64,000 bases of DNA from a virus (IMGVR_UViG_3300034019_000586:2723-66722); one strand, 5' to 3'; counted from the first letter of the stretch, positions 3,001 to 39,027 are shown. Made by a program: numbers and translations. Notes: generated by a model not told the origin, from the letters alone.

Positions 3001-3150
3001 CGTAATAAATTTAGCCCAAGATTTGCCACAGAAGAACTTGCAATGATGAACGGTGAAGAAATGAGGTCATACGGAATTACAATGGAATTAACATATACCC
3101 CAACTGATAGCGGTGCAGAACTTAATTCAGTTGAGGTGATAACGACATAA
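1..3150 (+). CDS. Tail stabilization/nozzle-like structural protein, 5'-truncated by the window
   Basis: The frame is open from base 1 (IYENNEETTWS precedes the called Met at 34). More than 1000 aa, beta-rich, with C-terminal motifs (YGEVVK, FGCIDAGSV, FYYDRING, RWRSRYDY, FHGDEF) resembling P22 gp10-like/crAss-like tail proteins. It precedes the ejection-type genes. Confidence 0.6.
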   Translation: MYENNEETTWSMWSNLALPTQSEFISGNNWPDSSQDNGIRITLATGTEAVKRINLAVQTYDDNNGGVDGGFGIFIQFNKSELSIPNNSTFTYDFYGNVNLKPISNLDGNYDRLPIWARCQSVVDTSKVAYTNLIEGYDKDVELDVTTTPVYNEIIWNPLSGVINVLSANTSPSCSLSWVTDAVFTVAQGNTFSGSFTLTNGQVLLLTYTINQTDIEEALLEATPELQMDVILEIILNNFAEQAEAILGVSVSVSGNLINLSGGPEWAENSFQMTPQRQTLSTPSFKVGATHPFGIVYGDEAFRDSTVITGSGLNMFVPWYADLDLSSFTDPRNPFTVSAQMTINHLPPIWAKYYWIVWRKATEIADFSQWIINAFIPAGDAAGTAIVSESNRFVISLDKFYIENYNGASINHVPQKGDVARFIRQRLNSSSGNISDYVPTFFELEVMEYLPSAVGSDGRSQIIVEIFDRTLVDIDTWTGQLIEIYTPQPTLNEDGTLFVAPWRDGSETLEIINPHTNSRAHQGSDVSGLVSFDGEIGDVSFVTTTDLTNYLADPYNGLVTLTNNDNETETVETGAIVDLGGGDFKININGTLTFDFSSANGGSFVLTTSQQVSDGVSLLAAKLNISWGDVYVRQRNYATGYNTGSFGIGTNAFWFIEDPHYSDYWLSNIHQYGRLNIELDNAKQQHRIATSIHSDSYFTDTDINGTSSFSLLNDNIMDMNPLYGEVVKTVVSGREEKTLKCIQERKENSIYIKHYPDVAQVPSGDLRIDRETTFSAWYPLKSIFGCIDAGSVVLYPNGEVFYYDRINGVFVNSGGSGQVTISERDMLTGRDFKFRTKTKEITARLNSAGSGSYVRSYVDVLNQEVAFCFAYEEGTSNFIYEILTYDVLSNRWRSRYDYNFEWFANFGQTLVGWGTDSQMYLHNQSDSFTFHGDEFTQKLIIVSNEDPLRIKRFQNLIQRANKTFNTKAYTDSNQSYGAMETEMADYLFKVYEGYSMGYFRRNKFSPRFATEELAMMNGEEMRSYGITMELTYTPTDSGAELNSVEVITT

Positions 3151-3157
3151 AATTTTA

Positions 3158-3165
3158 TACTTTTG
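3158..3165 (+). promoter_or_regulatory. Bacteroidota -7 promoter box (TACTTTTG)
   Basis: Matches TAnnTTTG and ends 5 nt before the ATG at 3171, suggesting a near-leaderless transcript. Confidence 0.5.
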
Positions 3166-3170
3166 CAGAT

Positions 3171-3953
3171 ATGGATCCGATTACAATAGCGATGTTAGGA
3201 GCGCAGCTTGTTGCGCCTACGATGCAATTTATTCAGGGTAGGAAGCAGGGTAAGCAAGCCGATGAATTAAGTAAGAACTTAACCGATCCTGTTTACAACA
3301 TTCCTTCGTCGGCTGAGGCGGCTTTAGCTAATGCGGAAGCAATGGCACGTTCGCGTTATATGCCCGGACAGACGGCCTTTCAAAACCGTATCGAGCAAAG
3401 TACAGCCAACGCAATGGGTGACGTAATGCGATTCTCCCGTAGCCCACAAGATGCTATGAGTGCTATTACGGCTATTGGGGCAAAGAACAACGATATGGAA
3501 CTTGATTTAGCGTCAAGGGCTGCAATGAGTTATCAGAACAGACAAGGTGATTTAAGACAGCAACAAGGTATCATGGCTGGTTATGAGGATAAGAAATGGA
3601 CAAATGATGTGTTGAATAAATTCCTTCGTGATAGTGCTGCTGCGAGTGCTTTGGAAAACGCTTCGATTCGCAATAAGTACGAGGCTGTAAAGGGCGCGGC
3701 TAATGCTGCGGGTACGTTTATGGGTGGTTTGAAAACGGGTAATGTGGACAGAGAATCAATTTCAACGGGAGTAGAGCCAATTAATTCAGTTGGCACACAA
3801 AATTTACAAGTACCACAATCAAACTCAATGAATACGCAAGGACTGATGGGGAACACCACTTCGCCCGTTGCGGCAAATGCAGCAGGGTTATCCCCTGAGC
3901 AACTGCAACAATTAATGCAAGCCCTTAATCAAGTAAACTTTAAAGCGTTTTAA
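3171..3953 (+). CDS. Putative ejection/pilot (internal virion) protein
   Basis: 260 aa, Ala/Gln/Met-rich and helical, with an MDPITIAMLG N-terminus typical of podovirus ejection proteins; follows the tail gene. Confidence 0.55.
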   Translation: MDPITIAMLGAQLVAPTMQFIQGRKQGKQADELSKNLTDPVYNIPSSAEAALANAEAMARSRYMPGQTAFQNRIEQSTANAMGDVMRFSRSPQDAMSAITAIGAKNNDMELDLASRAAMSYQNRQGDLRQQQGIMAGYEDKKWTNDVLNKFLRDSAAASALENASIRNKYEAVKGAANAAGTFMGGLKTGNVDRESISTGVEPINSVGTQNLQVPQSNSMNTQGLMGNTTSPVAANAAGLSPEQLQQLMQALNQVNFKAF

Positions 3954-3954
3954 T

Positions 3955-5265
3955 ATGGCAACTCCAAGTGCTGCACAGGTATTTACGGGTGTTTCGGGAG
4001 GCAGGGGTGATAATTCAGGCTCTGCTGCGGTTTTAGATACAGCCCAAGACTTTCAGCCCATTGCAGATGCTTTTTATCGAAAGAGGGAAGCCGAACAAGT
4101 AAGACGTGCTGCCGAGCAAAAAAAAGCAGATCAGGATTGGTTTAATCTTCAAAAAGGATTTAATCCCGAAGAAGTTGCACTACGCGATCAGGATGAAATT
4201 ATGAGTGGTGCAAACGAGTACAATGATATGCTTGTTGACTTAAAAATGTCGGGAGCAAATCCACAGGATTATTATTCAGACGCGGGAAAGAAAGCGCGGG
4301 AGAAGGAGTTTCAGATAAGAAATTTAACTAAGGCTTCTGGTGAAAATCAGAAGTACGATGGACTTGTTGCTGCTGCTATTGAAAAGAAAGACCCTTCGAT
4401 GGACAGGGCGTATGCAGTAGATTGGTTGAAGCGTTACCGTGCTTTACCAAGTATTGAAGCACAGGCAAAGATGAGGCAAGAGGAAAACCCGTTTAAGACG
4501 GTTTATTCATTTGACAACACGGTTGAAAGGGTTAAGCCTTTTACAAAAGACGTATTGGTAGAAAAAGGCAATAGAGCAGATCAGGTTTCGGGGTTGAACG
4601 AAGATGCTTACAGGGCTAAGGTAAGACTTGATTTACAGTCACCCGCAGGACAATCTGATTTTGAAATGTGGTCAAATACAGCAGGGAATGAGGGCAAGAC
4701 TGCAACTGATTATGAAAATGAAGTGGTTGAGTACGCCAAAGGAACTGTAAAAGAATCTGTAAAAACGACTTATGATGAACCGAGAGTTGGTTCGTCGGGT
4801 TCGGGTTCAGATGGTGGCGGTAGCGGTGGATGGCAAAACAAACTATCAATCAACATAGAAAGCGGAAAAGACGATAGACTGATTCAGGGAGTACCAAACA
4901 GCATAGATGTAAAAAGAAAAGGCACTAATGATGATTTGCCGCCCGTAGAAGTTATTGGTGAGGATGGCAAAACAACAATTGCGTTTCAACCCATACGTTT
5001 TTTGAAAACTAAAAACGGGTGGAAAGTTTACGGCAAAAGATTTTCAAAGTCATCAGCAGGGTCGTATATGCCACAAGAAACAACAGAATCCTATGAAACA
5101 GTTGACTACGACTTAAATCATGGTACTTTCGTTTCTCAAATGAACGGGTTTGATATTTACAAGGACGTTGAAGGTGCTACAAAAGAAAGTAAGTCGGGTG
5201 GAACGAAACAAAATTCAAGCAAGGGTAAAACAAAATTCACGGGAGTTCCCGAAGGAGGTTTTTAA
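3955..5265 (+). CDS. Putative internal virion protein
   Basis: 436 aa helical protein with a Gly/Ser linker, between the pilot-like gene and the giant protein; stop overlaps the next start. Confidence 0.5.
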   Translation: MATPSAAQVFTGVSGGRGDNSGSAAVLDTAQDFQPIADAFYRKREAEQVRRAAEQKKADQDWFNLQKGFNPEEVALRDQDEIMSGANEYNDMLVDLKMSGANPQDYYSDAGKKAREKEFQIRNLTKASGENQKYDGLVAAAIEKKDPSMDRAYAVDWLKRYRALPSIEAQAKMRQEENPFKTVYSFDNTVERVKPFTKDVLVEKGNRADQVSGLNEDAYRAKVRLDLQSPAGQSDFEMWSNTAGNEGKTATDYENEVVEYAKGTVKESVKTTYDEPRVGSSGSGSDGGGSGGWQNKLSINIESGKDDRLIQGVPNSIDVKRKGTNDDLPPVEVIGEDGKTTIAFQPIRFLKTKNGWKVYGKRFSKSSAGSYMPQETTESYETVDYDLNHGTFVSQMNGFDIYKDVEGATKESKSGGTKQNSSKGKTKFTGVPEGGF

Positions 5266-8200
5266 TGCCAAACAAGATATACGATTTCATGAAGTCAAAC
5301 GGCCTCACCACTAAGGATGAGGCTACGTTTTTAAAGGAGTATTCTACTCCTGAAAAGTCGCGTGAACTGCATAGGTTTATGACGGAAAATGAATTAACTA
5401 CAAAGGATGAAAATTCATTTTATTCAGAGTATTTTGCACCAAAGGGGGCATCATCAGAGGTTGGCGCGGCTTCTGGGGTAGATTCAAACGCGCCACAACA
5501 GCCTTCTATTCCGAGTGGAGCAAGTCCTGAATACCTAAAACAACTTAGTGAAAAGAATTTTGTAAAGAGGATTAACAACCCGTCTAAATTTATTAAAAAT
5601 GCCGACGGTAGTAAATCAACTCACAAAATGGCAACAGCCGAAGTTGATGGCAAACAAATTGCCTTTCCTACTATTGTAGAGCAAAACGGCAAACTTGTAG
5701 AATTACCAATAAATGAGGCTATTGATTTCGCCTTAAAAAACAATGAATTTGCTGAATTTGCCAAAGCTGAGGATGCTCAGTGGTACGCAGAAGGAGGATA
5801 TAAAAAAGGAACTCCGCTTGAAAATTTAGAAAAGTCGCCACAACAAGCGGATGGAAACACTTTATTGCCGAGTGGACTAACACTTGACGAGCAAAGACGG
5901 GCGGTATTAAGTCATGCTTCTAAAATTACTCCGCAACAGGATCGTAAATTAAGTTTTGTACAGGATAACGAAAAGATTCCTTTCAGCACAAGGCAAAAGG
6001 CATTAAAAGGAACGCAATTTGAATCAGTTGCGCCACTTTCGGAACAACCTATTGCGGGTGAAAGAAACAAGCAGTTAGAATCTCAGGTTAAACAAAACGA
6101 AAGGCAAAACGAAAAGAGTTCACTTGCGGTATTAGCAGAATCTCACAGAAACAACCTTTCAAAAGATGTTGACTATAAAACAACGCAAGAAAAGTTTAAT
6201 TCAGCTTATGAGAATTGGCAAAACGGACAAGGTTCTCCCGAAGATGTAAAACTTGCGGAATCAGAACTTAACAGTCAGCTTGAATTACTTGATCGTGACT
6301 ATATCGGTAACGAGGCAACTAAACGTGGTGCGCTTGCCTTTATGGAGAAAAAAGACAAGTACGACCAAATTACTTCTAAGGTAAAAGCGGGTGAATCAAT
6401 TTCCGAAACAGAAAAGAAATTTCTTTACGACCTAAGAAAAGACGCACTTTCGGCAAAAGCGGCATCAGAAAGGGTTGCCTTGATGGATATTGAAGATAGT
6501 GTTGATATAGACACATTCAATAAAGAAATGGCAACACTTTCGGCTATGCAGGGAAGTATGACGGCAGATGAGTACAACGCCAAAGTTCAAGAAATTACGC
6601 AAAGGACAGGTGTTAATCAGGATGTCATAAATTCACTTGATTTAGGGTATAAGGAGCTTGCTTCGACGGTTGAGTTATCTAAGGTCACAGAGGCACAAAA
6701 TAGAAACATAGAAACAGAACGCGGGTTAGACAAAATGCGTTCCGAACAAAGAAAAGAGGGTGCGTACATGATACCCGAAGCATTGCGCGGACTTGTAGGC
6801 GCAATGGGTACAATGACTTTGAGCGCAGCTAAACTACCAAAGTCGCTTATGGGCCTTGACGATGAAACAAAATACGATTGGACAGATAAGTTATATGACT
6901 TTGCGGAAAACGAAGTAGATGAAAGTCAGGGAACTTGGGGCGCATTACAAGATGCTCCTGCATATTTGAAATATTCTTATATGCTTGGTCAAGGCGTTGG
7001 TTCGGTTGCGATGTTTGCTGCGGGTGGTGGCGTTTCGGCTGCGGTTGGTATGCCTTCGACGGTTGGTACAATAGGCACGGCTTTTATCATGTCGCAGCCT
7101 GACAACTACACAGAGGGTATAAATAGCGGAATGAGCGCACAAGAGGCAAGAATATACTCTAATGTGGTTAGTTCTGCGGAAGCATTTGCGGAAGGAATTA
7201 TACCTGATTCAAACTACTTCAAAAACCAATTAAAAACAACAATACTTTCAGCATACAAAAAGACGGGCTCGGTAAAAGAAGCGTTAAAAGTTGTTCCAAA
7301 AGTAATTGAAGGAATGGCGGTTAGCGGAAGTAAAGAGGGTGCGGAAGAAGTTGTTCAGACTTTTGCGGGTGACGTAACAAAAAGTTTTCTTGACACCGTT
7401 GCAGGTAGTGAGTATTACAATTCTACTTGGAATACAGAATCGTATAAGGACGCTATTTTGTCGGGCGCACTTACGGGTGGATTTATGAAGATGTTTGGTT
7501 CTTCAAGCCCTAAGAGTGAAGATACGCTTAATGTAATGCGGGATATGATTGATTCAAGGGAATCCATTGTTTCTAACATTGCTAAGTTCAATCCTGAATT
7601 AAGTACGCAAGTTGACGAGGTTTTGTCTAAGGCAGAGGAAGCAAAGGCTGGATTGGAATCTCATTCAAAGTGGAATGATTTAACAACGGCAGCACAGAAC
7701 AAGGCACTTGATTTAGTGTGGCAGATGGAACTTGCGGAGGACGCTAAGAAAAGAGTTGAGCAGTTTGGTATTGTCGATGAAAATAGAAACAAAGAATCCG
7801 AAAGGCTTGCGAAGGAATTGAACGATGTTTTTACTGATGATGCAAACACAAAACGGTACGCAGACACAGTTATAAGACAACTTCAACAGGCCCGTGCTGA
7901 ATTAGGTGTTGAATTTGACCCAATGGAAGATTTACCTGAATCGGTTGTAAAAACATTTGATCGGGTGGATGAAGGGTTGCCTACCGACCCCGTTGCGGTA
8001 AAAGAAGCAAGTGATTGGCTTTACTCAAAGTACAAGCAGTTGTCTGAAATGAAAAATGACGACAACCGTAAATTAACTATTGAGCAAATTGAGGCAATTC
8101 AATTACAATTAGGAGAAGATATTGATAAACTTGAAAATTACAGAAATGAAAACGAGCAACAACAAAGAACAGAAGAAAAAACCCAACCTGAAACAGAGGC

Positions 8201-33824: not shown

Positions 33825-33904
33825 TGTTATTGTTTTTTCGTTAATTAATCCATATCCGCGAACACTTGTTGAATATGTGCAGTAAAATCATCCATAGCTG
33901 GTAG

Positions 33905-34141
33905 TTAGGTGCAAGGCTCGTACAACGGACAAGCTGCATCCTTACATTTAATCTTTAGCAAACCATTATCAGTTCGGTTGCTTTTCCGAACTCCGCAATA
34001 TTGAAAAACCTTGCTGTTACATTCCCACCGTTGGCGATGCTCACAAGAATTACAAGTAAGCCCAGCACCTAACAATGGTTTTGCGTCAGGCAGGCTGAAC
34101 AGCGTTGGTTGAACATTTGTGGTTAAATCATCTTTATTCAT
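33905..34141 (-). CDS. Cassette 1 ORF, small Cys-rich protein
   Basis: 78 aa with CxxC...C...C. Starts in the attC1 loop; the stop is the TAA of the core at 33905-33907. Confidence 0.65.
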   Translation of the reverse strand: MNKDDLTTNVQPTLFSLPDAKPLLGAGLTCNSCEHRQRWECNSKVFQYCGVRKSNRTDNGLLKIKCKDAACPLYEPCT

Positions 34142-34199
34142 TCTATTGAAATTTAGTGGTTAAAATCCTGCCCGAACGCAAAGCCATCGGACGTTAGCT
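34067..34199 (+). repeat. attC-like site 1
   Basis: ACCTAAC-A-ATGGTTTTGCGTCAGGCAGG ... CCTGCCCGAACGCAAAGCCAT-CGGAC-GTTAGCT. Confidence 0.85.
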
Positions 34200-34403
34200 G
34201 CCATTGTAATGTGACACCACACAAGGGCATCTTTTACCATAATCAGGCATAATAACTTTATCGCATAGATTTACACTTACACCACATAAGCAAGTTTGTT
34301 TTACCTTGCTGTAATCTACCTCCGATTGAGGAGGAATAACGGCAGCTAACAAGCGGTTAGCGTCATTGCCGTTTTCGTGTTTTATTAAATTTTCTGTTTT
34401 CAT
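34194..34403 (-). CDS. Cassette 2 ORF, small Cys-rich protein (69 aa from ATG 34403)
   Basis: MKTENLIKHENGNDANRLLAAV...CLC...C...CPC. Starts in the attC2 loop and stops in the core TAA. Confidence 0.6.
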   Translation of the reverse strand: MKTENLIKHENGNDANRLLAAVIPPQSEVDYSKVKQTCLCGVSVNLCDKVIMPDYGKRCPCVVSHYNGS

Positions 34404-34477
34404 ATCAAATTTATTTTTAAAGTTAAAGTTTTGTGTTCCAAAGTCGGCAACGAACGCCAACCGCCAAAACGTTAGGC
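34344..34477 (+). repeat. attC-like site 2
   Basis: AGCTAAC-AA-GCGGTTAGCGTCATTGCCG ... CGGCAACGAACGCCAACCGC-CAAAAC-GTTAGGC. Confidence 0.85.
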
Positions 34478-34495
34478 GATATGCCAACAGACACC

Positions 34496-34930
34496 CTACA
34501 ACGGTTGAGTGATTTGATTACGAAGTATATCATAAAATACATTTCGTGACAAAGCACCCAAACAAATAAAATCGGGCTTCATTTCATTTAAAGCTAATAT
34601 TTCAGGAATAGCAATAAATAAATCTTCATCAGTAAGTTTTTTAATTAAATCACAATCCATTTCTATAACAGTACCTTTTGTTTTGAAATATCTTTGTTGT
34701 AAGTATTTTGTATATGCTTGTGTAGCATCTGCAATTACACCATACGTTTCGTTTGGGTTTTGCCTTGTAGCCCAACAAACGAAAGCACCTTTAAAATCAT
34801 TTATCATTAAATGAAATTTATCATTCAAATAATTTGCCGAAATGTCAGCGTTTGTCAATTTGTGAACTGACTTGTCTTTAATTTGTTTTGGAGTTAAGTC
34901 AATAACTTCTTTTTGATTTTCTGTACTCAT
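34496..34930 (-). CDS. Cassette 3 ORF, hypothetical protein
   Basis: 144 aa, wholly inside the cassette body, with an AT-rich leader. Confidence 0.65.
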   Translation of the reverse strand: MSTENQKEVIDLTPKQIKDKSVHKLTNADISANYLNDKFHLMINDFKGAFVCWATRQNPNETYGVIADATQAYTKYLQQRYFKTKGTVIEMDCDLIKKLTDEDLFIAIPEILALNEMKPDFICLGALSRNVFYDILRNQITQPL

Positions 34931-34973
34931 TTTATATTTATTTAAAGTTTAAAATTTTAATAAAGGCACAATC

Positions 34974-35105
34974 GCCTAACATCGGTTTTGTGCAAGTGGG
35001 GCTGAATTGCTAAATTCAACAGCGGTAATTCTAATCGGCTTTTGTGCTGAATTGAAACTTTCGTGTTCCAAATCCCCACCTGCACAAAGCCGCAACACGT
35101 TATAG
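34974..35105 (+). repeat. attC-like site 3
   Basis: GCCTAAC-AT-CGGTTTTGTGCAAGTGGGG ... CCCCACCTGCACAAAGCCG-CAACAC-GTTATAG. Confidence 0.85.
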
Positions 35106-35576
35106 GGCATTTAACCGAGCCACCACATCAGCAGACGTATGACCGTCAAACTCAAATAATGCTCTATCCTTTGCAGGTATTTTGAATAAATCCCAATCTT
35201 TCAATTCATAGTGGTTTGATATTTGACCTGTTGGCAATACTGCAACAACGATAAACCAACCACCACCAAAGCAATATTCTCCATCGTGATGCCTAATTGA
35301 TTTGTGAACATTGTATTGTGGTATATCAAACTTTGCCCACTCATTGAATAGTGCAGCATTGTAAGTTTTCCTAAACTCATACAATTCATTAAATGTCTGA
35401 TAACCGTCAGAGTAGTTTCCCCTAACATCAGCAGGTGTATTATCAATACCCTTTTGAACTGATAAAATAATTCCGTTTTGTCCTTGCATTTTTGTGTAAA
35501 ATAAACGCCCTATAACATACGCTATACAAAAGCAGGGGCGAACTGCTAATACAAGCGGTGTGCATCTATTTTTCAT
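35100..35576 (-). CDS. Cassette 4 ORF, conserved phage protein (WDGH-like)
   Basis: SDGYQTFNELYEFR...HKSIRHHDG...GWFIV...LPTGQISNHY...FDGHT. Stops in the core TAA; alternative start at ATG 35489. Confidence 0.7.
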   Translation of the reverse strand: MKNRCTPLVLAVRPCFCIAYVIGRLFYTKMQGQNGIILSVQKGIDNTPADVRGNYSDGYQTFNELYEFRKTYNAALFNEWAKFDIPQYNVHKSIRHHDGEYCFGGGWFIVVAVLPTGQISNHYELKDWDLFKIPAKDRALFEFDGHTSADVVARLNAL

Positions 35577-35639
35577 TTGTGGTAGGCTGAAAGGGAGTGC
35601 ATCTTAACCCCTGCCTTCGTATAGCGTCAGCCGTTAGCC
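35510..35639 (+). repeat. attC-like site 4
   Basis: CTATAAC-AT-ACGCTATACAAAAGCAGGGG ... CCCCTGCCTTCGTATAGCGT-CAGCC-GTTAGCC. Confidence 0.85.
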
Positions 35640-36431
35640 GCAATACGCAGACACCCGACTGACGGCAATTTCAAAATACTTTTCATCTTTTTCTATTCCG
35701 ATAAAGTGGCGACCTGTTTTTTTACAAGCGACACCTGTTGTTCCAGAACCCATGCAATTATCTAAAACAGTTTCGCCTTCGTTTGTATAAGTATTAACTA
35801 AGTAATCAAATAAAGCTATTGGTTTTTGGGTTGGATGAAATTTTCCATCAAATTCAGCAGTCGTAAAATACTGTACACTTCTCGGCAATCTCATGCCATC
35901 CTCTGATTTTCTTATGTGGCTATGGTAGTTCGGTATGTTATTTGAAACTTCGGGGTTATCGTGTTTCTCTTTTACACCACCTCTGTAATATGGTTTCCCT
36001 TGTGTTTTTTGTGGATAATAATTGGGAGTTCCGTTAGCAAATACAAGTACATTTTCGTGTGCTTTCAATGGCTGTTTTTTAGCCAGCAAAAAATTACTTG
36101 CTTTGCTTTTTTCCCAAATCCATTCGTATTTAAACATCTTTGGATTACTCATTACTAAGGCACTTGTAAAAGGCTGCGAAGCCGTTAAAACTATTGCACC
36201 ATTATCTTTTATAACTCTTTCGTAATGTTTCCAAAGTGGTTCAAAAGGTATTACACTATCCCACTTGCAAGCAGTAGTTCCATAAGGCAAATCACACAAA
36301 ATCATATCCACACTTTTATCTTCAATCTTATCCATTTCTACAAGGCAATCACCCTGATAGAATGTACTGCGGCTAACATTGCATTGCTGAACATTGCCAG
36401 CTTCATCGGTAATTTGAACTTTGTATTCCAT
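35634..36431 (-). CDS. Cassette 5 ORF, N6A/N4C DNA methyltransferase (beta class)
   Basis: GDCL, ILCDLPYG (motif IV), HPTQKP and VLDNCMGSGTTG (motif I). Starts in the attC5 loop and stops in the core TAA. Confidence 0.92.
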   Translation of the reverse strand: MEYKVQITDEAGNVQQCNVSRSTFYQGDCLVEMDKIEDKSVDMILCDLPYGTTACKWDSVIPFEPLWKHYERVIKDNGAIVLTASQPFTSALVMSNPKMFKYEWIWEKSKASNFLLAKKQPLKAHENVLVFANGTPNYYPQKTQGKPYYRGGVKEKHDNPEVSNNIPNYHSHIRKSEDGMRLPRSVQYFTTAEFDGKFHPTQKPIALFDYLVNTYTNEGETVLDNCMGSGTTGVACKKTGRHFIGIEKDEKYFEIAVSRVSAYCG

Positions 36432-36504
36432 ATCAACTTTTTATTTTAAATTAAACATTTTTGCTTCTAAATTGGCAACGTCAGCAATACGCAAACCGTT
36501 ATGT
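36371..36504 (+). repeat. attC-like site 5
   Basis: GGCTAAC-AT-TGCATTGCTGAACATTGCCA ... TGGCAACGTCAGCAATACGCA-AACC-GTTATGT. Confidence 0.8.
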
Positions 36505-36509
36505 GCCAT

Positions 36510-36674
36510 TTAATCGACACGCTCCTCAACTATCTTTGTTAATGCCCCACCAACTCTCATCTCATTAAGTTGCTTTTCACTTTCAATCGCTTTCTCCATT
36601 GTGGAATTTACACTCCAAATAACATCTTTTGGGGGTGCTTCACAATCAAGAACAATATAAACGGCACATAACAC
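36510..36674 (-). CDS. Cassette 6 ORF, small hypothetical protein (54 aa, not in ORF track)
   Basis: GTG start overlapping the attC6 core: (M)LCAVYIVLDCEAPPKDVIWSVNSTMEKAIESEKQLNEMRVGGALTKIVEERVD. Spans the cassette body. Confidence 0.45.
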   Translation of the reverse strand: MLCAVYIVLDCEAPPKDVIWSVNSTMEKAIESEKQLNEMRVGGALTKIVEERVD

Positions 36675-36761
36675 GTGCTATAAGCAAGTTTGCCAATAAC
36701 ATTTGTGCTAAATTTGAACATTTCTGCAAGGCAAACCTGCTCATAGCACCATACGTTAGCG
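36666..36761 (+). repeat. attC-like site 6 (short, 96 bp)
   Basis: ACATAAC-AC-GTGCTATAAGCAAGTTTGCC ... GGCAAACCTGCTCATAGCAC-CATAC-GTTAGCG. Confidence 0.85.
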
Positions 36762-36765
36762 GCAA

Positions 36766-37044
36766 TTAAAAAAACCACCGCACCAAATCCATTCCGCTTG
36801 ACTTATAATTTTGTTTTTCCATTAAATCAAATGGTATTTTTTTAACCATTGCATCAGGCAATCTTAAATTGGTGTATTGAGTGTATCTTTCTAATTTAAG
36901 TGTTCTTCCATCGCCTGAACAAAATTGATAACAAGCTCCATTATAGAGAATGTAATCTCCTTTTTTCACTGTGTATTCTTTTCGCCCAATCTTAACTGCC
37001 GCTAACAAGCGGTTAGCGTCATTGCCGTTTTGTGTTTCGTTCAT
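36766..37044 (-). CDS. Cassette 7 ORF, hypothetical protein
   Basis: 92 aa; the N-terminus MNETQNGNDANRLLAAV is encoded by the attC7 half-site. Confidence 0.65.
   Translation of the reverse strand: MNETQNGNDANRLLAAVKIGRKEYTVKKGDYILYNGACYQFCSGDGRTLKLERYTQYTNLRLPDAMVKKIPFDLMEKQNYKSSGMDLVRWFF
37000..37031 (+). repeat. Truncated attC-like site 7 (left arm only)
   Basis: 37001-37031 is identical to 34345-34375 (31 bp); no complementary right arm follows. Confidence 0.8.
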
Positions 37045-38802: not shown

Positions 38803-39027
38803 TTATTTGTTTATGAATTGTTCAAAGTCAAAATTAGCCGTTAGCTGTTCCATCATGTATCGCCCCAATATTTCAGGGTTAATGCTCAACCAATCTTCAA
38901 AAGTTAGAATGTCTTTTCGTGTTTCATACGTGGCAATAATTTCTTTACCGTAGTCGTGGTCTATTTTTTCTAAAACTTGCTCAACATTCCATTGAAACAA
39001 GTCCTCCTGTGTTATTACTTTGTTCAT
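38803..39027 (-). CDS. Hypothetical early protein
   Basis: 74 aa, tightly tiled with neighbours. Confidence 0.55.
   Translation of the reverse strand: MNKVITQEDLFQWNVEQVLEKIDHDYGKEIIATYETRKDILTFEDWLSINPEILGRYMMEQLTANFDFEQFINK

What the first reader, a model, noticed from the sequence alone, without database searches (positions are those of the whole stretch)
33905..37044. All cassette genes are inverted relative to attC polarity
Seen: arm mismatches are mostly A-C on the + strand, hence G-T wobbles on the - strand. Examples are attC4 ACGCTATACAAAAGCAGGGG vs CCCCTGCCTTCGTATAGCGT and attC6 GTGCTATAAGCAAGTTTGCC vs GGCAAACCTGCTCATAGCAC. A C-A pair also recurs at position 11 of the cassette-end pairing. 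The - strand is therefore the better-folding one. Established: IntI recombines the folded bottom strand, and cassette ORFs normally lie on the top strand. Here all seven ORFs lie on the folding strand, co-directional with the phage's leftward operon. Inference: this is a class of reverse cassettes carrying phage-type genes. They would be antisense and silent in a host array but expressed in the phage, which bears on the open question of where cassettes originate.
Basis: partly seen in the sequence, partly recalled or inferred. Interest (0 to 1): 0.85.

Follow-up and report, generated by a model that had tools for sequence, protein, structure and literature searches.

The report
Phage gene cassettes flipped versus host arrays
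This lake-water phage carries seven small swappable gene cassettes bounded by folding DNA hairpins of a family that also fills Flavobacterium chromosomes, but every phage gene faces the opposite way to the host genes, so one gene-swapping system seems to serve two separate gene pools.

Summary
In the window's six full hairpin sites the - strand folds better in 6 of 6. Arm mismatches are A-C on + in 11 cases against 4 G-T. The position-11 C-A pair occurs in 6 of 7 cassettes. All clear ORFs lie on the - strand.

The polarity call is right, but the decisive evidence is comparative, not the wobble argument. In five cultured Flavobacterium phages and a Flavobacterium chromosome, a gene body travels with the hairpin on its right, and homology breaks at G|TTA. 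The same site family gave at least 120 hits in bacterial genome contigs and at least 119 in viral contigs.

Among strong ORF-strand calls, host loci put the ORF on the top strand in 44 of 52. Viral loci did so in 0 of 118. Four of the eight host exceptions lie in one prophage.

These are not classical attC sites. Their unpaired bases lie on the arm opposite to a class 1 control, and the host array recombinase lacks the IntI-specific insertion. The window's phage encodes no tyrosine recombinase.

Silencing in host arrays is untested. This scan has noted the same system on at least 13 other genomes.

The parts
33826..33904 (+). Conserved array boundary with no hairpin (attI-like). It ends in the G of the first G|TTA.
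   Evidence: Homology with relative L001 runs through this stretch and breaks exactly at TAAC|TA, which is GTTA 33904. The same 56-65 nt occur at 88-98% identity in L001/L008, L003, L004, and twice in L005/L006.
33905..34193 (+). Cassette 1. The - strand ORF is 33905-34141 (78 aa, Cys-rich). Its start lies in the hairpin loop and its stop TAA lies in the TTA of the boundary. Site 1 is 34059-34193.
   Evidence: No Pfam match.
34194..34471 (+). Cassette 2. The - strand ORF is 34194-34403 (69 aa). Site 2 is 34336-34471.
   Evidence: A lake-metagenome contig breaks right after GTTA at 34474.
34472..35099 (+). Cassette 3. The - strand ORF is 34496-34930 (144 aa), wholly inside the body. Site 3 is 34966-35099.
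   Evidence: The Tad5 (PF25190) match is weak: E 1.4e-4, 22.4 bits, below the 27-bit cut-off.
35100..35633 (+). Cassette 4. The - strand ORF is 35100-35489 (129 aa, WDGH domain). Site 4 is 35502-35633.
   Evidence: PF25311 at E 1.3e-32.. A contig breaks after GTTAGC at 35638.
35634..36498 (+). Cassette 5. The - strand ORF is 35634-36431 (265 aa, N6/N4 DNA methyltransferase) and starts in the loop. Site 5 is 36363-36498.
   Evidence: PF01555 at E 2.1e-30. DNA is 74-78% identical to methyltransferase genes of Flavobacterium and Polaribacter phages..
36499..36755 (+). Cassette 6, short. It holds only a doubtful - strand frame, 36510-36674. Site 6 is 36658-36755, with an 82-nt hairpin.
   Evidence: A contig breaks right after GTTA at 36758.
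36756..37044 (+). Cassette 7. The - strand ORF is 36766-37044 (92 aa). Its site is a half site (36992-37031): core, left arm and loop ATG only. It is fused by an ATGA overlap to the stop of the upstream phage gene (37041-37382).
   Evidence: (repeat D3: 34337-34375 and 36993-37031, 95%).

Best explanation
Window 33905-37044 is an integron-like array of seven cassettes inside the leftward early/accessory operon of a Flavobacteriia-type phage.

Each cassette, written on the + strand, is TTA..body..TAAC-hairpin-G. The site sits at the right end and the crossover lies at G|TTA. The + strand is therefore the 'top' strand in integron terms, and the better-folding - strand is the 'bottom' strand. By analogy with integrons, the bottom strand would be the one that folds and is exchanged (inferred, not shown).

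In Bacteroidota chromosomes the same sites follow top-strand genes, beside a short Xer/IntI-like tyrosine recombinase. In phages every gene is on the bottom strand. The site then precedes its gene, often supplies the start codon and first residues, and supplies the stop codon from the TTA of the boundary. Phage cassettes are thus complete gene units that read with the phage operon.

This phage has no recombinase of its own. Cassette gain, loss and exchange would therefore depend on a recombinase from the host, a prophage or a co-infecting phage (inferred).

The flip keeps phage and host cassettes in two pools that share one recombination chemistry. A cassette that crossed over would lie antisense to its new operon (inferred).
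For: Setting. The window is a phage: DnaB-like helicase, replication initiator, tail fibre and large terminase. The record is 66.7 kb and rated complete. The integron-integrase model finds no tyrosine recombinase in it, although that model rings in 14 of 14 control genomes. tblastn with the host array recombinase also finds none.

Site family. Five cultured Flavobacterium phages carry 10-14 co-oriented sites each, with their genes on the opposite strand. Across 43 distinct sites the left spacer is 1-3 nt and the right spacer 4-7 nt. There are 22 extra bases in the right arm against 2 in the left. C is at position 11 in 41 of 43 sites, opposite A in 41 of 43.

Crossover side in phages.
- Eight bodies keep the same right hairpin in every phage that has them, while five of those eight have variable left hairpins.
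- One phage has an extra unit [body B20 + right hairpin h23]. Three have an extra [B19 + h22].
- Two methyltransferase-cassette alleles diverge up to a sharp break at the base before GTTA.

Crossover side in a host. In the F. wongokense array, three duplicated cassettes have 100% identical bodies. Their right hairpins are 0.99-1.00 identical and their left hairpins 0.64-0.87.

This phage lineage. Relatives hold 1, 1, 3 or 7 cassettes between the same flanking genes. Lake-metagenome contigs diverge right after GTTA at 34474, 35638 and 36758.

Spread. A 22-base pattern gave at least 120 stretches in genome contigs, most titled as Bacteroidota. It gave at least 119 in viral contigs.

Orientation. 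Strong calls are 44 same / 8 opposite in genome loci and 0 / 118 in viral loci, Fisher p 6.5e-33. By locus: 30 only-same, 4 only-opposite and 1 mixed in genomes; 60 only-opposite in viral contigs. Locus L052, which holds 4 of the 8 opposite calls, is flanked by virion genes at E 1e-160 to 5e-65.

Recombinase.
- In 3 of 3 genomes where it shares a contig with the array, it lies at the left end of the top-strand array and is co-directional with the host genes.
- Nine of the 119 viral loci from the pattern scan encode a homologue (34-43% identity). The search also covered L001-L014 and the window, with no hit there. In 7 of the 9 it lies 0.3-1.2 kb from the same left end but on the bottom strand, co-directional with the phage genes. 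One locus is mixed and one recombinase is 8 kb away.

Folding bias. The bottom strand is more stable in 181 of 240 genome-locus sites (mean -1.81 kcal/mol) and in 331 of 396 viral sites (mean -2.05). That is the same sign and size as the 2.12 kcal/mol reported for classical bottom strands (Nivina 2016, PMC5027507, passages read).
Against: - The classical primary strand marker disagrees. In classical attC the extrahelical bases lie on the arm opposite the AAC triplet of the bottom strand. A class 1 control parsed by my script shows spacers of 5/6 and two extra bases in the left arm. Here the extra bases and the long spacer lie on the AAC arm of the - strand.
- No recombination was observed. Which strand is cut, and by which enzyme, is inferred.
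- Not every rearrangement fits a G|TTA crossover. In two cultured phages a body is joined to a foreign hairpin, with the break 7 nt left of the C of TAAC, and its ends no longer pair. One low-depth contig joins 36668 to 37003, a TAAC-to-TAAC deletion.
- Four relatives carry four different terminal cassettes, all cut off at the same half site. G|TTA exchange alone does not explain that.
- The loci were sampled with one sequence pattern that matches only 7 of 43 known sites when it ends ...NNNNNNNGTTA, without the C before GTTA. I did not re-count the submitted version, which adds that C. The scans were capped, and many loci are related, so the cassette counts are not independent events.
Confidence: 0.8

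Rival explanations
1. Polarity is mis-assigned. The + strand is the recombining bottom strand, because it carries the extra bases opposite its 5' AAC arm as in classical attC. On this view the phage genes lie on the top strand in the ordinary integron orientation, and the chromosomal arrays are the reversed ones.
For: The side of the extra bases and the spacer asymmetry match a classical bottom strand on +. Two events have breaks on the TAAC side: the hybrid cassette and the 36668-37003 joint.
Against: The extra cassettes in sniff9-1, hemulen6-1, mymlan6-1 and filifjonk9-1 are [body + right hairpin] units. The three duplicated host cassettes share the right hairpin only. Allele divergence ends sharply at GTTA and fades gradually on the other side. 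The recombinase lies at the left end in hosts (3 of 3) and in phages (7 of 9). Folding favours the - type strand. Even if the strand names were swapped, phage and host arrays would still be opposite to each other.
Confidence: 0.06
2. The hairpins are phage regulatory RNA or DNA elements, such as processing sites, translation-start structures, or promoter-terminator motifs like the PeSLs of T4-type phages. Genes between them shuffle by ordinary homologous recombination at the repeats, with no dedicated site-specific recombinase.
For: In phages the transcribed strand is the better-folding one, with G-U-type pairs. Start codons sit in the loops. This phage has no recombinase. PeSL-mediated shuffling is a precedent (PMC2839356 and PMC4122927; search listing and first lines of the abstracts only).
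Against: The same sites fill chromosomal arrays where they are transcribed in the other sense, next to a tyrosine recombinase. Each cassette has its own 10-15 nt end complementarity, with compensating changes between cassettes. That follows from cutting a hairpin in a circular intermediate, not from homologous exchange. The only invariant letters at the crossover are about 5 nt. A Bacteroidota-type -7 motif (TAnnTTTG) on the coding strand occurs in only 5 of 337 phage loops.
Confidence: 0.07
3. This is an ordinary CALIN: classical attC sites left in a phage by a classical integron and recombined by classical IntI enzymes. The gene orientation is an accident of phage mosaicism.
For: Qi et al. 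2023 (PMC9892861; passages read) report 17 CALINs in 10,705 phage genomes. One is in Polaribacter phage P12002L and carries methyltransferase genes. IntI1 recombined the bottom strand of one of its sites. P12002L has at least one site of the present family, at 38879-38933 next to methyltransferase gene gp54.
Against: The unpaired features mirror a class 1 attC. The array-linked recombinase lacks about 35 residues where the IntI-specific insertion lies, and scores 189-203 bits against the 265-bit integron-integrase cut-off. The inversion is uniform, 0 of 118 strong calls, not accidental. IntegronFinder 2.0 reported only In0 elements and one complete integron (Salinibacter) in Bacteroidetes (PMC9024848, passage read).
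Confidence: 0.07

Closest known systems
Sedentary chromosomal integrons (IntI, attI, arrays of cassettes with uniform long attC sites such as the Vibrio cholerae repeats)
   Same: Both have rows of single-gene cassettes separated by imperfect hairpins of about 55-125 nt with AAC/GTT cores. The crossover is at G|TT at the far end of the site, and the cassette ends pair with each other. Sites are near-uniform within a host array, and a tyrosine recombinase sits at one end. The bottom strand folds about 2 kcal/mol better.
   Different: The recombinase lacks the IntI-specific insertion and has an unmatched N-terminal extension of about 75-110 aa. Spacers are 1-2 nt against 5-6 nt, and the bulged base lies on the arm next to the crossover, the mirror of a class 1 attC. 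End pairing runs 10-15 nt with a fixed C-A at position 11. The host recombinase gene is co-directional with the cassettes. In phages all genes are on the bottom strand.
Phage CALINs (clusters of attC sites lacking an integrase), Qi et al. 2023, Front Microbiol, PMC9892861
   Same: Both are attC-type sites without an integrase in virulent phages of environmental bacteria, with DNA methyltransferase cassettes. A Polaribacter (Flavobacteriia) phage is among them.
   Different: In the passages I read, the paper treats the sites as classical attC. It notes 'divergent directions' for P12002L. It does not describe a uniform inversion of phage genes, the mirrored site geometry, or Bacteroidota chromosomal arrays with a short recombinase.
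Reverse-oriented cassettes inside classical integrons (for example toxin-antitoxin cassettes with their own promoters)
   Same: In both, a gene lies on the bottom strand of a cassette and reads away from its attC.
   Different: There they are a minority inside top-strand arrays. That is recalled knowledge; Nivina 2016 says only that most cassettes are promoterless with few exceptions. Here 118 of 118 strong calls in viral contigs are reversed, and the start codon often lies inside the site.
PeSL mobile regulatory cassettes of T4-type phages (PMC2839356, PMC4122927; listing and first lines of abstracts only)
   Same: Both involve accessory phage genes flanked by repeated stem-loop motifs and shuffled as modules between close relatives.
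   Different: PeSLs are promoter-terminator motifs that recombine by homology. Here there are fixed AAC/GTT crossover cores and cassette-specific end pairing. The same sites stand beside a recombinase in host chromosomes.

Membership tests
Classical integron | Integron integrase carrying the IntI-specific additional domain | tested here: not met
   The window's phage has no tyrosine recombinase. Host array recombinases score 189-203 bits on TIGR02249 (cut-off 265), in two stretches that skip profile positions of about 185-237. Against IntI1 of plasmid R100 they are 30% identical, with gaps of 25 and 10 residues in that region.
Classical integron | attC hairpin closed by inverse core ...AAC and core GTT... 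| tested here: met
   TAAC and GTTA were required by my scanner, so their presence is by construction. Beyond that, C precedes GTTA in 43 of 43 sites and A follows TAAC in 43 of 43. The full GTTRRRY consensus is not always kept; GTTATAG is one example.
Classical integron | Extrahelical bases on the L'' arm (opposite the AAC arm of the bottom strand), with a roughly symmetric 5-6 nt central spacer | tested here: not met
   There are 22 extra bases in the right arm against 2 in the left, and spacers of 1-3 against 4-7 nt, in 43 sites. The larger sets show the same bias: 79 against 17 and 118 against 42. The control attC of aadA1 has spacers of 5/6 and two extra bases in the left arm. The rule is as stated in Nivina 2016.
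Classical integron | Crossover at G|TT of the R' end, so that a cassette is the body plus the site that follows it on the top strand | tested here: met
   cultured phages; host duplicates; contigs that diverge after GTTA at 34474, 35638 and 36758. The exact bond within GTTA cannot be resolved from sequence.
Classical integron | Bottom strand folds better and holds more G-T pairs | tested here: met
   6 of 6 in the window. 181 of 240 genome-locus sites and 331 of 396 viral sites. G-T on the bottom strand 381 against 250 and 607 against 330.
Classical integron | Cassette genes on the top strand, reading towards their attC | tested here: not met
   Not met in the window or in viral loci, 0 of 118 strong calls. 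Met in host genome loci, 44 of 52 strong calls.
CALIN (cluster of attC sites lacking an integrase) | Two or more attC sites called by IntegronFinder or HattCI, with no integrase nearby | not testable with these tools
   Neither program nor its attC model is on hand. Rfam has no matching family: 0 hits at gathering thresholds in the window.
PeSL-type phage regulatory cassettes | Repeat made of an early promoter plus a terminator stem-loop on the coding strand | tested here: not met
   The Bacteroidota -7 motif TAnnTTTG (motif recalled, not from a call) occurs on the coding strand in 5 of 337 phage loops. It is followed by an ATG within 25 nt in 5. No U-tract terminator was examined.

The most novel reading that the evidence does not exclude
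A single integron-like recombination system in Bacteroidota serves two cassette pools held apart by orientation. Host cassettes carry the gene before the site on the top strand. Phage cassettes carry the site before the gene on the bottom strand. A cassette captured across the divide would then be antisense and silent.

In phages the flip also places the folding strand on the non-template strand of the early operon. Early transcription could therefore itself drive hairpin extrusion and fast reshuffling of counter-defence genes such as methyltransferases.
Probability: 0.25. Interest if true: 0.9.

Novelty: new variant of a known kind. Interest (0 to 1): 0.8.

Why it matters
Integrons are known as bacterial gene-capture devices with one fixed gene orientation. 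Here the same kind of site is used in both orientations, and the orientation tracks who owns the cassette. The split is complete in this sample: 0 of 118 against 44 of 52.

This bears on three points.
- How phages swap accessory and likely counter-defence genes such as orphan methyltransferases.
- What the minimal parts of an integron are. This one works with a short recombinase and mirrored unpaired bases.
- How cassettes are built. In phage cassettes the site is part of the gene's 5' end.

The system can be tested at the bench, because cultured Flavobacterium phages and their hosts carry it.

Tried and rejected
- Rfam at gathering thresholds gave 0 hits in the window. tRNA search gave 0.
- My first scanner found no sites in relatives L001-L004 and L008. 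It found only weak or unrelated hits in L007, and one true site in each of L005 and L006. L003, L004 and L001 turned out to hold a single cassette with only a half site.
- I first read polarity from the side of the extra bases, which made the + strand the bottom strand. I dropped this reading after the unit analysis.
- I proposed that each loop carries a Bacteroidota promoter for the reversed gene. This was rejected: 5 of 337 loops carry the motif on the coding strand.
- No RNA holder was listed for the stretch, so nothing can be said about expression.
- The four laid runs are short contigs. Parts without cover mean nothing. The joints that skip the loops (34094-34161, 34091-34164, 35532-35614) come from related sites. 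The 36668-37003 joint rests on one contig at depth 2 with 25 letters on the shorter side.
- Genome G002 gave only an 89-aa fragment as its best recombinase hit. The G003 recombinase lies on another contig than its array. For F. caseinilyticum I could not tell whether the recombinase shares a contig with the prophage array.
- Searches for prior description were. Apart from Qi et al. 2023, none of the listed titles or abstract openings described Bacteroidota arrays with a short recombinase or a uniform inversion in phages. I read only the listings, except for the three papers named above.
- I built no covariance model, folded no protein and sent no complex job.

Full report
WHAT IS THERE

The window is a phage. 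It encodes a DnaB-like helicase, a replication initiator, an exonuclease, a tail fibre, a large terminase and virion proteins. It lies in a 66.7-kb IMG/VR record rated complete.

Between 33904 and 37044 the + strand reads as a row of units, GTTA..body..TAAC-hairpin-GTTA. My scanner finds six full hairpin sites, all in this stretch, and none elsewhere in the 64 kb. A seventh site keeps only the core, the left arm and part of the loop.

All long ORFs are on the - strand.
- Cassette 5 encodes an N6/N4 DNA methyltransferase and cassette 4 a WDGH-domain protein.
- Cassette 3 has only a sub-threshold Tad5 match.
- The others match no Pfam family.
- Cassette 6 has no convincing ORF.

THE OBSERVATION

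- The quoted arms are at the stated places.
- Arm mismatches are A-C on + in 11 cases and G-T on + in 4.
- The two ends of each cassette pair perfectly over 10 nt in 7 of 7 cassettes.
- Position 11 is A opposite C in 6 of 7.
- Folded as single-stranded DNA, the - strand is the more stable in 6 of 6 sites, by 2.0 to 6.4 kcal/mol.

IS THE POLARITY RIGHT?

The hairpin with its AAC/GTT cores is nearly symmetric, so the strand names need outside evidence. The classical literature gives two markers (Nivina et al. 2016, PMC5027507, passages read).
- The bottom strand folds better and has more G-T pairs.
- The extrahelical bases lie on the arm opposite its AAC triplet.

Here the two markers disagree. 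The - strand folds better. But the one-base bulge and the long spacer lie on the AAC arm of the - strand. A control attC (aadA1 of plasmid R100), parsed by the same script, shows the classical layout: spacers of 5 and 6, with two extra bases in the left arm. The sequence of the sites alone therefore could not decide.

COMPARATIVE EVIDENCE

The methyltransferase gene led to cultured Flavobacterium phages. These carry 10-14 sites of the same family, all co-oriented, with their genes on the other strand.

I cut five such arrays into bodies and hairpins and clustered them.
- Eight bodies keep the same right-hand hairpin in every phage that has them. Five of those eight have left-hand hairpins that vary.
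- sniff9-1 has one extra unit made of a body plus its right hairpin.
- hemulen6-1, mymlan6-1 and filifjonk9-1 have another such extra unit.
- Two alleles of the methyltransferase cassette differ over the hairpin. They become identical again exactly at GTTA, while on the other side the difference fades inside the gene.

One exception is a hybrid in mymlan6-1 and filifjonk9-1. Its break lies 7 nt left of the C of TAAC, and its ends no longer pair.

The crossover is therefore on the GTTA side. That makes the window's + strand the top strand in integron terms and puts the phage genes on the bottom strand.

THE WINDOW'S OWN LINEAGE

The window's own lineage agrees.
- Relatives carry 1 (L001, L003, L004), 3 (L005, L006) or 7 cassettes between the same two flanking genes.
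- Homology at the left breaks exactly at the first GTTA.
- Contigs from lake metagenomes that share a site diverge right after GTTA at 34474, 35638 and 36758.

A 22-base pattern from the sites matched twice in the window against 0.00 expected. It gave at least 120 stretches in bacterial and archaeal genome contigs and at least 119 in viral contigs. Most genome titles name Bacteroidota. A few name Saccharibacteria, Ignavibacteria/Chlorobi or Proteobacteria bins.

Sites within a locus are almost always co-oriented: 126 in the - orientation, 116 in the + orientation and 3 unoriented, in 120 loci.

For each body between two co-oriented sites I asked which strand holds the long open frame. A call was 'strong' if one strand covers at least 80% of the body and the other under 60%.

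| Loci | Strong: top strand | Strong: bottom strand | Weak: top | Weak: bottom | Skipped |
|---|---|---|---|---|---|
| Genome | 44 | 8 | 36 | 18 | 20 |
| Viral | 0 | 118 | 23 | 120 | 30 |

Fisher's test on the strong calls gives p 6.5e-33. By locus the split is 30 only-top, 4 only-bottom and 1 mixed in genomes, and 60 only-bottom in viral contigs.

Four of the eight genome exceptions are in locus L052, which is flanked by three virion genes and so is a prophage.

I compared proteins from 326 phage-side cassettes with proteins from 106 genome-locus cassettes. There were 37 matches. All went to bottom-strand cassettes and none to top-strand ones. Host arrays therefore do not share the phage orientation, and the finding is not refuted.

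WHAT THE HOST ARRAYS ARE

In three genomes the best tyrosine recombinase lies on the same contig as the array. It sits at the left end of the top-strand array and is co-directional with the cassette genes. In F. wongokense it is followed by an array of at least 29 near-uniform sites over 17 kb, and each ORF is followed by a site. Three duplicated cassettes there share the right hairpin (0.99-1.00) but not the left (0.64-0.87), so the crossover side is the same in hosts.

The recombinase is close to both Xer and IntI proteins.
- It scores 213-222 bits on the XerA/integron-integrase model (cut-off 220).
- It scores 189-203 bits on the integron-integrase model (cut-off 265).
- It is 30% identical to IntI1.
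- It lacks about 35 residues where the IntI-specific insertion lies.

Nine of the 119 viral loci encode a homologue. In seven it lies 0.3-1.2 kb from the same end of the array, but on the bottom strand, co-directional with the phage genes. Site polarity relative to the recombinase end is thus conserved, and only the genes are flipped.

The - type strand folds better in 181 of 240 genome-locus sites and in 331 of 396 viral sites, by about 2 kcal/mol.

HOW IT MOST LIKELY WORKS

Shown:
- the cassette unit and the crossover side;
- the shared site family;
- the opposite gene orientation in phages and hosts;
- the absence of a recombinase in this phage.

Inferred:
- the folded - strand is the substrate;
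- a host, prophage or co-infecting phage recombinase does the exchange;
- the flip keeps two cassette pools apart and lets phage cassettes ride the phage operon.

In the phage layout the site precedes its gene. The start codon of cassettes 1, 2, 5 and 7 lies in the loop, and the stop of cassettes 1, 2, 4 and 5 is the TAA made by the boundary TTA. Each cassette is therefore a complete gene unit.

My idea that the loop also carries a promoter failed. It is untested: no RNA holder was listed.

COMPARISON WITH WHAT IS KNOWN

The system works like a sedentary chromosomal integron. It fails two defining tests, the IntI-specific domain and the side of the extrahelical bases.

Phage CALINs are in print (Qi et al. 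2023, PMC9892861, passages read). They include a Polaribacter phage with methyltransferase cassettes, one of whose sites IntI1 could recombine. That phage holds at least one site of this family. In the passages I read, the paper notes only 'divergent directions'.

IntegronFinder 2.0 reported almost no integrons in Bacteroidetes. My five literature searches listed nothing on a uniform inversion or on these host arrays.

Earlier follow-ups of this scan describe the same system on at least 13 other genomes, one of them as 'flipped'. I reached the polarity and orientation results before reading them.

WHAT REMAINS UNEXPLAINED

- The distal half site is the same kind of truncation in four relatives with four different terminal cassettes.
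- A few events break on the TAAC side.
- It is not known why the unpaired bases are mirrored.

VERDICT

This is a new variant of a known kind. Interest 0.8.

Noticed in passing
window 36992-37044; L001 about 60-125; L003 4756-4822; L005 3647-3690: The cassette furthest from the attI-like end always has only a half site: core, one arm and the loop ATG. It is fused by an ATGA overlap to the stop of the same upstream phage gene. Yet the four relatives carry four different terminal cassettes with four different arms. A single deletion cannot explain this, so some exchange must occur inside the loop or at the TAAC side.
   Followed up: partly
window 33826-33904; L005 4289-4345 and 4589-4650: A conserved element of about 60 nt, with two ATGGAT repeats, ends every array of this phage lineage. 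It is present twice in L005/L006, on both sides of a small cassette that lacks a good hairpin.
   Followed up: partly
window 34337-34375 and 36993-37031: Cassettes 2 and 7 share a 39-nt stretch (95%) that covers the core and the left arm. As a result, two unrelated proteins begin with the same peptide (NGNDANRLLAAV).
   Followed up: partly
hairpin loops of viral loci L135-L253, cultured phages, and genome loci L015-L134: The motif TAnnTTTG is far commoner on the top strand of the loops (62 of 337 phage loops, 45 of 226 genome loops) than on the bottom strand (5 and 5). It may be an outward promoter for the next host cassette, or a bias of composition.
   Followed up: no
L013 about 5210-5400 and L014 about 7230-7420: A hybrid cassette. 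A body known from snork9-1 and sniff9-1 is joined to a foreign core plus hairpin, with the break 7 nt left of the C of TAAC. Its two ends no longer pair.
   Followed up: partly
L254 1228-2271 (-), L255 1207-2250 (-), L256 1168-2325 (+): The host array recombinases have an N-terminal extension of about 75-110 aa that matches no model. They end in a motif like the IntI1 C-terminus (SPFD against SPLD).
   Followed up: no
L016, L033, L044, L049, L070 (genome contigs): A few pattern hits lie in contigs titled Saccharibacteria, Pseudidiomarina, Gammaproteobacteria or Proteobacteria. These may be mis-binned phage contigs or a wider host range. The L033 cassette proteins match phage cassette proteins.
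   Followed up: no
L119 (Flavobacterium calami contig) 3006-5731; L127 5295-5798: Two chromosomal arrays mix top-strand cassettes with a few bottom-strand ones. These had no match among the phage cassette proteins I held.
   Followed up: no
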